A DNA stretch of 64,000 nucleotides from Escherichia coli O157:H7 (lineage in GTDB: Bacteria > Pseudomonadota > Gammaproteobacteria > Enterobacterales > Enterobacteriaceae): NCBI RefSeq assembly GCF_013167455.1, contig NZ_CP038328.1, one strand, 5' to 3'. Position numbers: made by a program. Below, in pieces: positions 28,320 through 31,300 of this stretch; position 1 is the stretch's first letter; each line of letters opens with the position of its first letter.

Positions 28320-31300
28320 TACACATGCGTCCCCGTAGGTCGGATAAGACGCGCCAGCGTCGCATCCGACATTTTAGGCACAGTAGCCCACCTACACCGG
28401 CAACGTTTTCAACAATCCAAATGCCTCTTTCATCCGATCCTCACTGACCACAAAGGCGCGAAGTTGGTCTGCATCGTCAACACCGCGCGCCACCATTCCC
28501 TGGCGTTCGGTATTAATCTGCCAGCGTAAATCCTGACGCTGGGTTTCGCCTGCCAGATGCAGCGGTAATTCCGGCGTTTTGATTTTCACCAGCATCGCCG
28601 GTAGTTTCAGCGGCGTGTTATTGCCGAGAAGATTTTTTGCCAGCACCATCGCGCTAAGTTGAATCGGCTGCAGGAACGGCAATACCTGACCGTTAATTTC
28701 CGCGCAATCGCCCAGCGCGTAAATATCGGCATTACTGGTTTGCAGATAACTATCGACGCAAACGCCGCGATTAATCGTCAGCCCGGCGCGTCGTGCCAGG
28801 GCGGTTTCCGGGCGCAGTCCGGTGGCGGCAATTACCGCATCCACTTCGATGCTGCGCTGGTGGTCCAGCGTTGCCAGAATGCCAGAATCCGTTTTTTCCA
28901 GCCCCTGCAACTGAGATTTCAACAGCAGATGAACGCCCATCTCCGTCAACCGATGCTGCAAGCGACTGCTTACTTCCGGTGGCATTAACGACGCCAGAAT
29001 ACTGGCAGCGTTGTCGATTAGCGTAACCATTTTGCCTGCACGACAAAAATCCATCGCCAGTTCGCTACCAATCAAACCACCGCCAACAATCAACACGCGT
29101 CGGGCATCCCGCAGTTGCGTTTCACAGGCGCGATACTCTTGCTGACTATTTAACGTCAGCATTAACTCACGCCCAGGCACTGGCGGGACAAAGGCGCTGG
29201 CACCGGTTGCCAGCACCAGCTTGTCGTATTGCCACTGATTATTCTGGCTTTTCACCACACGGGCTTCGGCATCGATATCCGTCACCCAGGTTTGCGGAAA
29301 CAGGAGCAGATTAAACTGCTCGGCAAATTCACCCGCCGTCTGGCGGGTAAGGTCGTCGGCACGTTGCCCCTGACTGATAACATGGCTGAGGTCAGGTTTG
29401 TTGTACTCATCCATACTGTCGGCGGCAATCAGGGTTAATGGAATACTGGCGTCCTGTTTGCGAATATTTTTCACCAGTTGGCGGGCGGCGAAGCCCGAAC
29501 CAATGATCACAATGCCGTTGCTCATTTTGCCTCCGATGCCAGTTCGTCAAAGACGTCTTTGCCGAGGGAGCATTCCGGGCACAGGAAGTTATCCGGGACT
29601 TCACTCCACGGCGTTCCTGGCGCAACGTCCTGCATTGGCTCGCCTTTTGCCGGATCGTAAATCCACTGGCAGACGCTGCACTGCATCCGTGGGCCGAGGT
29701 CAGCCGTCGTGGTGGCAGAGGTTTCTTCTTTAACTACCGTATTCACCGTGCTCTGCGGCAGCGGCGCGAGCGCCCACTGACGGGCGATTTCGCGACCGTG
29801 TTCACGGCATAACTCCAGAGCGTCCTGGTCTGGTCGCCATTTCGCTTTCAGGCTAAGCGACATTTCGAAACCCGCATCCTGCAGGCGCGTGGAAAGACGA
29901 TCCACCGCACCGCCGCTCCAGCCGTGAGAGCCGAAAGCACTGGCGCGTTTGTTACGGAAGCGTAATCCGGTCATCTCCTCCACCAGCCCGGCGATTTTCG
30001 GCATCATCACGTTATTCATCGTCGAAGTGCCGACCAGCACGCCTTTTGAGCGGAAGACATTGGTCAGGATTTCGTTTTTATCGCTTCGGGCGACGTTGAA
30101 AATTTTCACCGCCACGCGTGGGTCGGTTTCCGCAATCCCCTGGGCGATAGCGTCAGCCATCATGCGGGTGTTATTCGACATGGTGTCGTAGAAAATGGTG
30201 ATTCTGTCTTCCTGATAATCAGCCGCCCATTTCAGGTACAGCTCGACAATTTGCGTCGGGTTATCGCGCCATACCACGCCGTGAGAGGTCGCTATCATAT
30301 CGACTGGTAAGTTAAAGCCCAGGATCTCGGTAATTTTCGGCGTTACCAGACGGCTGAACGGCGTAAGGATATTGGCGTAGTAACGCTGGCACTGCTCAAA
30401 AAGCTCCGTCTGATCCACTTCATCGTTGAACAGATGCTCGTCGCAGTAGTGCTGACCGAAAGCATCGTTACTGAACAGCACCGCGTCGCCTGTCAGGTAA
30501 GTCATCATGCTGTCCGGCCAGTGCAGCATTGGTGTTTCGACAAAAATGAGCTGTTTGCCGTTGCCGATATCCAGCGTGTCGCCAGTTTTCACCACATTAA
30601 AATTCCACTCCGGATGATGGTGATGACCATTTATCGAGTCGATAGCGTTGGCTGTACAGTAGATCGGCGTATCGGGAATTTGTGCCATCAGTTCGGTCAG
30701 CGCCCCGGCGTGGTCCTCTTCTGCATGGTTAATCACGATGTAATCGATATCCGCCAGATCGATTTCATTACGCAGGTTCTGCACAAATTCGCGGCTGAAT
30801 TTATGGTCGACGGTGTCGATCAGCACGTTTTTTTCTTCGCGGATGAGGTAGCTGTTGTAGCTGCTGCCGCGCAGCGTTTTATATTCCGTGCCGTGAAAAT
30901 CTCGTACTTCCCAGTCACGTTGACCAACCCAATGAATGTTATTTTTCACCACAATAGACATAGCAACCTCAATTTATTCAGCGTGTTCTAAAAAGATGTC
31001 TTGCTAATTGCAGATTGCGTGCCAGTTTTTTATCTGATTGTTTTTACTCTATAAATAAAATTATGCTCATTAATGAGTAGTCAAAATGACTATCAATCCA
31101 ATGGTCGATATGACAATATCTATAGTCAAATTGACAGTGAGGCAAAGATGAGTTTTTCCGTTGATGTGCTGGCGAATATCGCCATCGAATTGCAGCGTGG
31201 GATTGGTCATCAGGATCGTTTTCAGCGCCTGATCACCACGCTGCGTCAGGTGCTGGAGTGCGATGCGTCTGCGTTGCTACGTTACGACTCGCGGCAGTTT

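What the first reader, a model, noticed from the sequence alone, without database searches (positions are those of the whole stretch)
30962..31147. Intact NorR enhancer (three GT-N7-AC sites) and sigma54 promoter for norVW
All three NorR sites and the -24/-12 element are present with canonical spacing, arguing that the NO-detoxification switch is functional. The long ORF-track extension of norR upstream of the true start overlaps these sites and should not be annotated as coding.
Basis: partly seen in the sequence, partly recalled or inferred. Interest (0 to 1): 0.2.

Follow-up and report, generated by a model that had tools for sequence, protein, structure and literature searches.

The report
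Known NorR enhancer and norVW promoter
This is the well-studied nitric-oxide switch of E. coli (three NorR binding sites plus a sigma-54 promoter between norR and norVW), present here in intact form in an O157:H7-type chromosome, so it is ordinary and already explained.

Summary
Window 30962-31147 is exactly the 186-bp norR-norV intergenic region of an E. coli O157:H7-type chromosome. It carries the three NorR sites mutated by Tucker et al. 2010: site 1 GTCAAAATGAC (31080-31090), site 2 GTCGATATGAC (31104-31114) and site 3 GTCAAATTGAC (31125-31135). The sigma-54 element TGGCACGCAATCTGCA lies on the minus strand (31024-31009).

The region differs from K-12 MG1655 at two bases (31099, 31067). 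Neither lies in a site or in the -24/-12 element, and both fall in columns that vary between species.

NorR (504 aa), NorV (479 aa) and NorW (377 aa) are full length, and the NorR iron ligands, Walker motifs and GAFTGA are kept.

Upstream of norV in 116 other species plus the window, 96 of 117 regions show the same triple GT-N7-AC layout, against 7 of 5436 control windows.

The 25-codon upstream extension of the norR ORF (31073-31147) is non-coding. It has no Shine-Dalgarno sequence and no conserved start, and the NorR family model begins at the annotated ATG. Some GenBank O157 records nevertheless annotate the 529-aa form.

"Functional" remains an inference: rpoN and the IHF genes lie outside the window, and NO induction was not measured here. 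Verdict: already known, low interest.

The parts
28392..29525 (-). norW, NADH:flavorubredoxin reductase, 377 aa, full length
   Evidence: ORF. Pfam Pyr_redox_2 plus Rbx_binding. Eight substitutions against K-12 and the same length. RefSeq annotation of identical DNA.
29522..30961 (-). norV, flavorubredoxin NO reductase, 479 aa, intact (no 204-bp deletion)
   Evidence: ORF. Pfam metallo-beta-lactamase/ODP, flavodoxin and rubredoxin domains. Two substitutions against K-12. Other O157:H7 strains such as RM8376 lack the segment that corresponds to window 29903-30106.
30967..30970 (-). norV Shine-Dalgarno GAGG, 5 nt before the ATG
   Evidence: Read directly from the sequence. The columns are conserved in the 48-sequence enterobacterial alignment.
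30996..30998 (-). Inferred norV transcription start (+1), 12 nt downstream of the C of the -12 GC
   Evidence: Inference from sigma-54 promoter geometry. It agrees with the published footprint limits of -137 to -84 mapped onto the outer G residues of sites 3 and 1.
31009..31024 (-). Sigma-54 promoter core TGGCAC-GCAAT-CTGCA (GG at 31023-31022, GC at 31011-31010)
   Evidence: Identical to K-12. Mean identity 0.81 across 48 enterobacterial sequences. CTGC is the commonest -12 form among 116 loci (53 loci).
31025..31079 (.). A+T-rich spacer between enhancer and promoter, the region reported to bind IHF in K-12. Contains the O157-type SNP at 31067.
   Evidence: IHF binding here is stated in PMC2831303, citing Tucker 2004. 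The best IHF-consensus matches in the window have 2 mismatches, e.g. AATCAGATAAAAA at 31039-31027. Enterobacter-type orthologues carry a perfect AATCAATAAGTTA at the homologous place. Mean identity is 0.56.
31080..31090 (.). NorR enhancer site 1, GTCAAAATGAC (nearest the promoter, centre about -87)
   Evidence: Matches the wild-type form of the Site1 primers. Identical to K-12. Mean identity 0.91 across genera.
31104..31114 (.). NorR enhancer site 2, GTCGATATGAC (centre about -111)
   Evidence: Matches the wild-type form of the Site2 primers. Identical to K-12. Mean identity 0.90.
31125..31135 (.). NorR enhancer site 3, GTCAAATTGAC (centre about -132; ends 12 nt before the norR ATG)
   Evidence: Matches the wild-type form of the Site3 primers. 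Identical to K-12. Mean identity 0.91.
31139..31142 (+). norR Shine-Dalgarno GAGG, 5 nt before ATG 31148
   Evidence: Read directly from the sequence. The columns are conserved in the alignment.
31073..31147 (+). Spurious 25-codon in-frame extension of the norR ORF (non-coding; overlaps all three NorR sites)
   Evidence: No Shine-Dalgarno sequence upstream of 31073. The upstream in-frame start is absent in E. albertii and in another E. coli, and variable elsewhere. No family matches the 25-aa peptide, and the NorR equivalog model starts at residue 2 of the 504-aa form.
31148..32662 (+). norR, NO-sensing sigma-54 enhancer-binding protein, 504 aa (GAF, AAA+, C-terminal HTH)
   Evidence: Pfam GAF, Sigma54_activat and AAA_lid_14. 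NCBIfam NorR equivalog NF003451 at 823 bits against a cut-off of 476. R75, D96, D99, C113, D131, Walker A GETGTGKE at 215, GAFTGA at 262 and Walker B at 283 are all kept.

Best explanation
This is the canonical norR-norVW divergent control region of E. coli, in the allele carried by O157:H7 strains with an intact norV.

Mechanism, established for K-12 and inferred here from near-identity:
- Three NorR dimers bind the three GT-N7-AC palindromes at about -87, -111 and -132, and assemble a hexamer on the DNA.
- IHF bends the A+T-rich spacer so that the hexamer touches sigma-54 RNA polymerase, which sits in closed complex on TGGCAC-N5-CTGCA.
- NO binds the non-haem iron of the NorR GAF domain and releases the AAA+ ATPase.
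- The ATPase drives open-complex formation and transcription of norV-norW from about 30996-30998.

The sites lie 13-68 nt upstream of the norR ATG, so bound NorR should also dampen norR transcription (autorepression). The 25-codon ORF extension over the sites is a reading-frame accident, not coding sequence.
For: Shown here:
- The sequence is identical to K-12 at all three sites and at -24/-12. There are two SNPs elsewhere, both in columns that vary between species.
- The sites equal the wild-type forms of the site-directed mutants of PMC2831303.
- The footprint limits -137 to -84 fit the inferred start.
- The triple site occurs once in the window and in 0 of 100 shuffles.
- NorR, NorV and NorW are full length with their catalytic and sensor motifs. 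The NorR substitutions against K-12 lie at variable positions, and at residue 316 the window's Ser is the family consensus (45 of 51).
- The 71-bp enhancer is at least 95% identical in 5415 of 5426 complete E. coli genomes.
- Upstream of norV in 116 other species plus the window, 96 of 117 regions carry a triple GT-N7-AC array, against 7 of 5436 control windows. The 21+24-bp spacing of the window is the commonest form (47).
- Conservation peaks on the sites (0.90-0.91) and on -24/-12 (0.81), against 0.49-0.62 in the spacers.

From the literature:
- Each of the three sites is needed for activation. The GAF, AAA+ and IHF mechanism is described (PMC2831303; PMC4601167).
- A norR-norV promoter-lux reporter responds to the dose of NO donor in O157 hosts, and intact norV lowers intracellular NO and protects anaerobic growth (PMC5552940).
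Against: - No expression measurement exists for this exact sequence.
- rpoN, ihfA and ihfB are outside the window.
- No IHF consensus match better than 2 mismatches was found.
- The SNP at 31067 (about -69) lies in the spacer where IHF is said to bind.
- The norR promoter was not located. The sigma-70 scan found none on the plus strand.
Confidence: 0.93

Rival explanations
1. The motifs are intact but the switch is attenuated or silent in this O157:H7 lineage. The cause could be the lineage-specific SNPs (31099 in the spacer between sites 1 and 2; 31067 in the IHF region), the NorR substitutions, or factors acting in trans.
For: Two SNPs separate this allele from K-12. The exact 71-bp enhancer allele is restricted to 308 of 5416 records. 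PMC8779985 reports, as preliminary data (n = 2, not shown), no NO effect on norV expression in TW14359.
Against: Both SNP columns vary freely between species: at 31067 A 19 and G 20, at 31099 T 25 and A 18. The NorR differences lie at variable or consensus-restoring positions. In O157 backgrounds with intact norV, NorV lowers intracellular NO and protects growth, and a norR-norVp-lux reporter responds to NO dose (PMC5552940).
Confidence: 0.05
2. NorR really starts at ATG 31073 (529 aa), so the three palindromes lie inside coding sequence.
For: The frame is open from 31073. The frame upstream of the annotated ATG also stays open in many other species and even gives a recurring pseudo-peptide (SQND.., QYD.., CQND). 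The 529-aa form is deposited in GenBank for O157:H7, e.g. AAG57816.1 of EDL933.
Against: There is no Shine-Dalgarno sequence before 31073, whereas GAGG sits 5 nt before 31148. The in-frame upstream start is missing in E. albertii, in another E. coli and in several Klebsiella/Enterobacter loci. The apparent peptide conservation follows from the DNA palindromes, which are spaced 24 and 21 bp apart (multiples of 3) and so fall in one frame. The NorR equivalog profile begins at the annotated Met. The 504-aa form was seen on at least 1000 contigs (the counting cap), the 529-aa form on 3. RefSeq K-12 and O157 both use 31148.
Confidence: 0.01
3. The palindromes and the -24/-12 match are chance features of an A+T-rich intergenic region.
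For: Single -24/-12-like matches occur at chance frequency in the window (9 against 8.2 expected). GT-N7-AC alone occurs 204 times in 64 kb.
Against: The triple array occurs in 0 of 100 shuffles and in 7 of 5436 control windows, against 96 of 117 regions upstream of norV. The sites are the most conserved blocks of the region. They are the experimentally mutated and footprinted sites.
Confidence: 0.005

Closest known systems
E. coli K-12 norVp with its three NorR enhancer sites (Tucker et al. 2004; Tucker et al. 2010, PMC2831303)
   Same: The three 11-bp sites, their 24- and 21-bp spacing, the distance to the promoter, the -24/-12 element, the divergent norR and the downstream norVW are all the same. 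244 of 246 aligned bases are identical.
   Different: There are two single-base differences, at 31099 (between sites 1 and 2) and 31067 (in the enhancer-promoter spacer). NorR has 3, NorV 2 and NorW 8 amino-acid substitutions. No functional difference has been shown.
norR-norV region of O157:H7 strains with the 204-bp norV deletion (EDL933, Sakai, RM8376)
   Same: The control region is 100% identical over 311 bp, and the NorR protein is identical (WP_000010739.1).
   Different: Those strains lack the segment that corresponds to window 29903-30106, giving a 1236-nt norV. The window carries the intact gene, as reported for clades 6-9 (PMC8779985).
NorR-dependent promoters in other proteobacteria (Salmonella norV, Pseudomonas fhp/hmp, Ralstonia norA/norB)
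   Same: All have triple GT-N7-AC arrays upstream of a sigma-54 promoter. Here the array was seen upstream of norV orthologues in Citrobacter, Enterobacter, Klebsiella, Pectobacterium, Pseudomonas, Vibrio and Photobacterium.
   Different: Spacing shifts to 20+25 or 19+25 bp outside the Enterobacteriaceae. Twenty-seven loci have TTGA instead of C/TTGC at -12.
FhlA-dependent sigma-54 promoters of hyc/hyp in the same window (12857-13120)
   Same: Same promoter class (TGGCAC-N5-TTGC) and the same kind of activator, a GAF-containing enhancer-binding protein.
   Different: The activator (FhlA), the signal (formate) and the enhancer sequence are different. These promoters are not part of this finding.

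Membership tests
NorR-dependent sigma-54 control region (norVp type) | Three inverted repeats with core GT-N7-AC upstream of the promoter | tested here: met
   Sites at 31080-31090, 31104-31114 and 31125-31135. They are identical to K-12 sites 1-3 as defined by the mutagenic primers. The array occurs in 0 of 100 shuffles.
NorR-dependent sigma-54 control region (norVp type) | Sigma-54 -24 GG / -12 GC element in the canonical register, facing norV | tested here: met
   TGGCACGCAATCTGCA at 31024-31009 on the minus strand, one mismatch to TGGCAC-N5-TTGC and identical to K-12.
NorR-dependent sigma-54 control region (norVp type) | Sites coincide with experimentally footprinted NorR contacts | tested here: met
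   The published protection from -137 to -84 spans 53 nt. This equals the distance between the outer G residues of sites 3 and 1, and places +1 at 30996-30998, 12-14 nt after the -12 GC.
NorR-dependent sigma-54 control region (norVp type) | IHF site between enhancer and promoter | tested here: inconclusive
   The best consensus matches have 2 mismatches. The region is identical to K-12 except at 31067. IHF binding is reported only through citation in PMC2831303.
NorR-dependent sigma-54 control region (norVp type) | Adjacent divergent norR that encodes a GAF-AAA+-HTH enhancer-binding protein with GAFTGA and the iron ligands | tested here: met
   Pfam GAF and Sigma54_activat. NCBIfam NorR equivalog at 823 bits against a cut-off of 476. 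R75, D96, D99, C113, D131, GAFTGA and the Walker A and B motifs are present (ligand list from PMC4601167).
NorR-dependent sigma-54 control region (norVp type) | Target operon encodes an NO-detoxifying enzyme (norVW), intact | tested here: met
   NorV is 479 aa and NorW 377 aa, both full length with the expected domains.
NorR-dependent sigma-54 control region (norVp type) | NO-, NorR- and RpoN-dependent induction in vivo | not testable with these tools
   This needs reporter or transcript measurements, and rpoN is outside the window. The literature for O157 backgrounds is mostly supportive, with one preliminary contrary remark.

The most novel reading that the evidence does not exclude
The O157:H7-specific allele of the control region changes the inducibility of norVW relative to K-12. 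The allele consists of a C at 31099 between sites 1 and 2 and a T at 31067 in the IHF spacer, and is found exactly in only 308 of about 5400 E. coli records. Such a change would account for the preliminary report that norV is not NO-induced in a clade 8 outbreak strain, and it would modulate NO-dependent Shiga-toxin expression.
Probability: 0.04. Interest if true: 0.35.

Novelty: already known. Interest (0 to 1): 0.07.

Why it matters
The finding serves as an annotation sanity check. It confirms that this O157:H7-type chromosome has the complete norR-norVW NO-detoxification module: regulator, enhancer, promoter, and intact norV and norW. Many O157:H7 strains carry a 204-bp deletion in norV instead, and the norV genotype has been linked to survival in macrophages and to Shiga-toxin output. 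The finding also flags a recurrent mis-annotation, the 529-aa NorR. It reveals no new biology.

Tried and rejected
1. A fourth palindrome, GTCACGTTGAC, lies at 30914-30924 inside norV codons 13-16 and was considered as an extra NorR site. It needs the codons GGT and GAC, and only 16 of 120 norV orthologues have both. I rejected it as chance.

2. An IHF consensus scan of 30985-31085 found nothing better than 2 mismatches, so the IHF core could not be placed.

3. The sigma-70 scan for a norR promoter found none on the plus strand. It found one weak minus-strand match (31116-31089, TTGTCA-16-GATAGT) at chance frequency. The norR promoter remains unlocated.

4. A whole-window Rfam scan found no RNA family in the intergenic region.

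5. Hutchings et al. 2002 (PMC135257), on norR autoregulation, is not held in the library. Tucker 2004, the original footprints, was not consulted directly. Autorepression is therefore given as recalled knowledge, together with the RefSeq label 'dual regulator'.

6. The three NorR substitutions against K-12 were considered as possible defects. I rejected this because the positions are variable, and at residue 316 the window carries the family consensus.

Full report
**What is there.** The stretch 30962-31147 is exactly the 186-bp, 32% G+C gap between two divergent genes. On the minus strand, norV (29522-30961, 479 aa) is followed by norW (28392-29525, 377 aa). On the plus strand lies norR (31148-32662, 504 aa). 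The window is an E. coli O157:H7-type chromosome. A 311-bp probe is 100% identical to O157:H7 strains. Window 22000-42000 is 100% identical to strains such as FRIK1989, 644-PT8 and 180-PT54, which RefSeq annotates with these same gene limits.

**The observation.** Three GT-N7-AC palindromes are present:
- 31080-31090, GTCAAAATGAC
- 31104-31114, GTCGATATGAC
- 31125-31135, GTCAAATTGAC

Their centres are 24 and 21 bp apart. On the minus strand, TGGCAC-GCAAT-CTGCA occupies 31024-31009, with GG at 31023-31022 and GC at 31011-31010. This is the canonical 11-nt register and has one mismatch to TGGCAC-N5-TTGC.

The triple array is far beyond chance. It occurs once in the window and in none of 100 dinucleotide-preserving shuffles. 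A lone -24/-12-like match is not significant (9 found, 8.2 expected). The promoter call therefore rests on its position and its identity to the characterised promoter, not on the motif alone.

Aligned to K-12 MG1655, 244 of 246 positions are identical. The two differences are at window 31099, in the spacer between sites 1 and 2, and at window 31067, in the enhancer-promoter spacer.

The mutagenic primers of Tucker et al. 2010 define sites 1, 2 and 3. Restoring GG..CC to GT..AC gives exactly the three window sequences with their flanks (PMC2831303).

[quoted passage not shown] The span of 53 nt equals the distance between the outer G residues of site 3 and site 1. It puts +1 at 30998 if the minus-strand G residues are meant, or at 30996 for the plus strand. 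That is 12-14 nt after the -12 GC, where a sigma-54 promoter should initiate. The motifs therefore match the footprinted sites, and the refutation criterion is not met.

**Trans-acting and target genes.**
- NorR has GAF, Sigma54_activat and AAA-lid domains. It scores 823 bits on the NCBIfam NorR equivalog, against a cut-off of 476.
- The iron ligands R75, D96, D99, C113 and D131 (list from PMC4601167) are all present. So are R81, Walker A (215), GAFTGA (262) and Walker B (283).
- The three substitutions against K-12 (T177A, C316S, T443P) lie at positions that vary between species. At 316 the window's Ser is the consensus, found in 45 of 51 sequences.
- NorV and NorW are full length with the expected domains.

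**Comparative evidence.** I scanned one genome per species for the codon pattern of the NorV motif [10 protein letters not shown], which does not depend on the upstream region. This gave 120 loci from the Enterobacterales, Aeromonas, Vibrio, Photobacterium, Shewanella, Pseudomonas and Paraburkholderia.

Of the 117 regions with 300 bp of upstream sequence (116 loci plus the window), 96 carry a triple GT-N7-AC array. Only 7 of 5436 control 300-bp windows from the same loci do. The window's 21+24-bp spacing is the commonest form (47), followed by 20+25 (26).

In an alignment of 48 sequences with the 21+24 layout, mean identity to the window is as follows:

| Segment | Mean identity |
|---|---|
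| Three NorR sites | 0.90-0.91 |
| -24/-12 element | 0.81 |
| Inter-site spacers | 0.49-0.62 |
| Enhancer-promoter spacer | 0.56 |

Both O157-type SNPs fall in freely varying columns. Within E. coli, the 71-bp enhancer is at least 95% identical in 5415 of 5426 complete genomes. The exact allele of the window is found in 308 records.

**The ORF extension.** The norR frame is open from ATG 31073, 25 codons upstream of the annotated start, and it covers all three sites. The evidence that it is not coding:
- GAGG sits 5 nt before 31148, and nothing comparable precedes 31073.
- The ATG and Shine-Dalgarno columns at 31148 are conserved, whereas those at 31073 are not.
- An upstream in-frame start is absent in E. 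albertii, in another E. coli and in several Klebsiella/Enterobacter loci.
- The NorR family model begins at the annotated Met, and the 25-aa peptide matches no family.

The frame stays open in many species and even yields a recurring pseudo-peptide (SQND / GRYD / SQID in the window). This happens because the palindromes are spaced by multiples of three and read GTC-A.. as xQxD in one frame. It is a DNA-level constraint that mimics protein conservation.

The caution is practical. The exact 529-aa form is deposited for O157:H7 (for example AAG57816.1 of EDL933) on 3 contigs. The 504-aa form was seen on at least 1000 contigs, the counting cap.

**Mechanism.** The following is established for K-12 and inferred here from near-identity. 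Three NorR dimers occupy the three sites and form a DNA-bound hexamer. IHF bends the A+T-rich spacer. NO binds the GAF iron and relieves repression of the AAA+ ATPase, which then remodels the sigma-54 holoenzyme closed complex at -24/-12 and starts norVW transcription (PMC2831303; PMC4601167). Each site is individually essential in vivo. Site 3 ends 12 nt before the norR ATG, so bound NorR probably also represses norR. This last point is inferred. RefSeq calls K-12 NorR a 'dual regulator', and the primary paper was not available.

**Limits of the 'functional' claim.** rpoN and the IHF genes are outside the window, and no expression data exist for this sequence. No IHF consensus match better than 2 mismatches was found.

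The literature for O157 backgrounds is mostly supportive. A norR-norV promoter-lux reporter responds to NO-donor dose, and intact norV lowers intracellular NO and protects anaerobic growth (PMC5552940). Against this, PMC8779985 mentions as preliminary unshown data (n = 2) that norV expression did not change with NO in TW14359. I put about 5% on an attenuated switch.

**Verdict.** This is the textbook NorR/norVp system in a known allele. It is already known and of low interest.

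Noticed in passing
window 29522-30961 (deletion-prone segment 29903-30106): norV is intact here, whereas other O157:H7 strains with a 100% identical control region (e.g. RM8376) carry the known 204-bp in-frame deletion. The deleted segment is bounded by a 6-bp direct repeat, GCGGTG, which suggests slippage or illegitimate recombination. The literature assigns intact norV to clades 6-9 and the deletion to clades 1-3.
   Followed up: partly
window 30914-30924: A fourth perfect GTCA-N3-TGAC palindrome (GTCACGTTGAC) lies inside norV codons 13-16 (GQRD), downstream of the promoter. The required synonymous codons (GGT and GAC) co-occur in only 16 of 120 orthologues, so it is probably chance.
   Followed up: yes
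window 31073-31147 and loci L006-L125: The three NorR sites are spaced by multiples of 3 (24 and 21 bp). They therefore read in one frame as a repeated xQxD pseudo-peptide continuous with norR. This mimics protein conservation across genera and has led to deposited 529-aa NorR annotations (e.g. AAG57816.1).
   Followed up: yes
loci such as L007, L009, L010, L013, L018, L040, L069, L074, L076, L098, L109: In 27 of 116 norV upstream regions (Enterobacter, Klebsiella, Raoultella, Lelliottia, Pseudescherichia and others) the sigma-54 -12 element reads TTGA(T) instead of C/TTGC. It thus lacks the usually near-invariant GC, while TGGCAC and the three NorR sites are kept.
   Followed up: partly
loci L012, L014, L019, L026, L036, L037, L041, L090, L091 and others: Twenty-one of 117 norV upstream regions lack a strict triple GT-N7-AC array. 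They include several Shewanella, Vibrio and Photobacterium loci and Craterilacuibacter L101, and show two, one or no strict sites. In some loci (Vibrio L026 and L046, Craterilacuibacter L101) two strict sites lie about 44-45 bp apart with no strict middle site.
   Followed up: no
window 12857-12871 (-), 12985-12999 (+), 13106-13120 (+): Three further TGGCAC-N5-(T/A/C)TGC matches cluster in the hypA-hycA divergent region. They are presumably the FhlA-dependent sigma-54 promoters of the hyp and hyc operons.
   Followed up: no
window 36087-37048 (srlE) and 37045-37607 (srlA), minus strand: Both sorbitol PTS genes are annotated as frameshifted pseudogenes in the identical FRIK1989 sequence. This fits the sorbitol-negative phenotype of O157:H7. 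PV15-279 differs from the window by an indel near 37238 and has an intact srlA.
   Followed up: partly
window 48334-48405 (-), 55003-55080 (-), 44792-45420 (+): Rfam hits: the MicA sRNA between luxS and gshA, naRNA4 (a REP-derived nucleoid-associated RNA), and a cluster of one tRNA-Ser and four tRNA-Arg genes downstream of csrA.
   Followed up: no
window 31089-31116 (-): A weak sigma-70-like match (TTGTCA-16-GATAGT) faces norV and overlaps NorR sites 2 and 1. It occurs at chance frequency in shuffles, and nothing indicates that it functions.
   Followed up: no
E. coli genome collection: One of the 5428 matches to the norR-norV intergenic probe lies on a record classed as a plasmid. Some genomes hold up to 3 copies, and one of the 5426 genomes has no match. 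None of these records was inspected.
   Followed up: no
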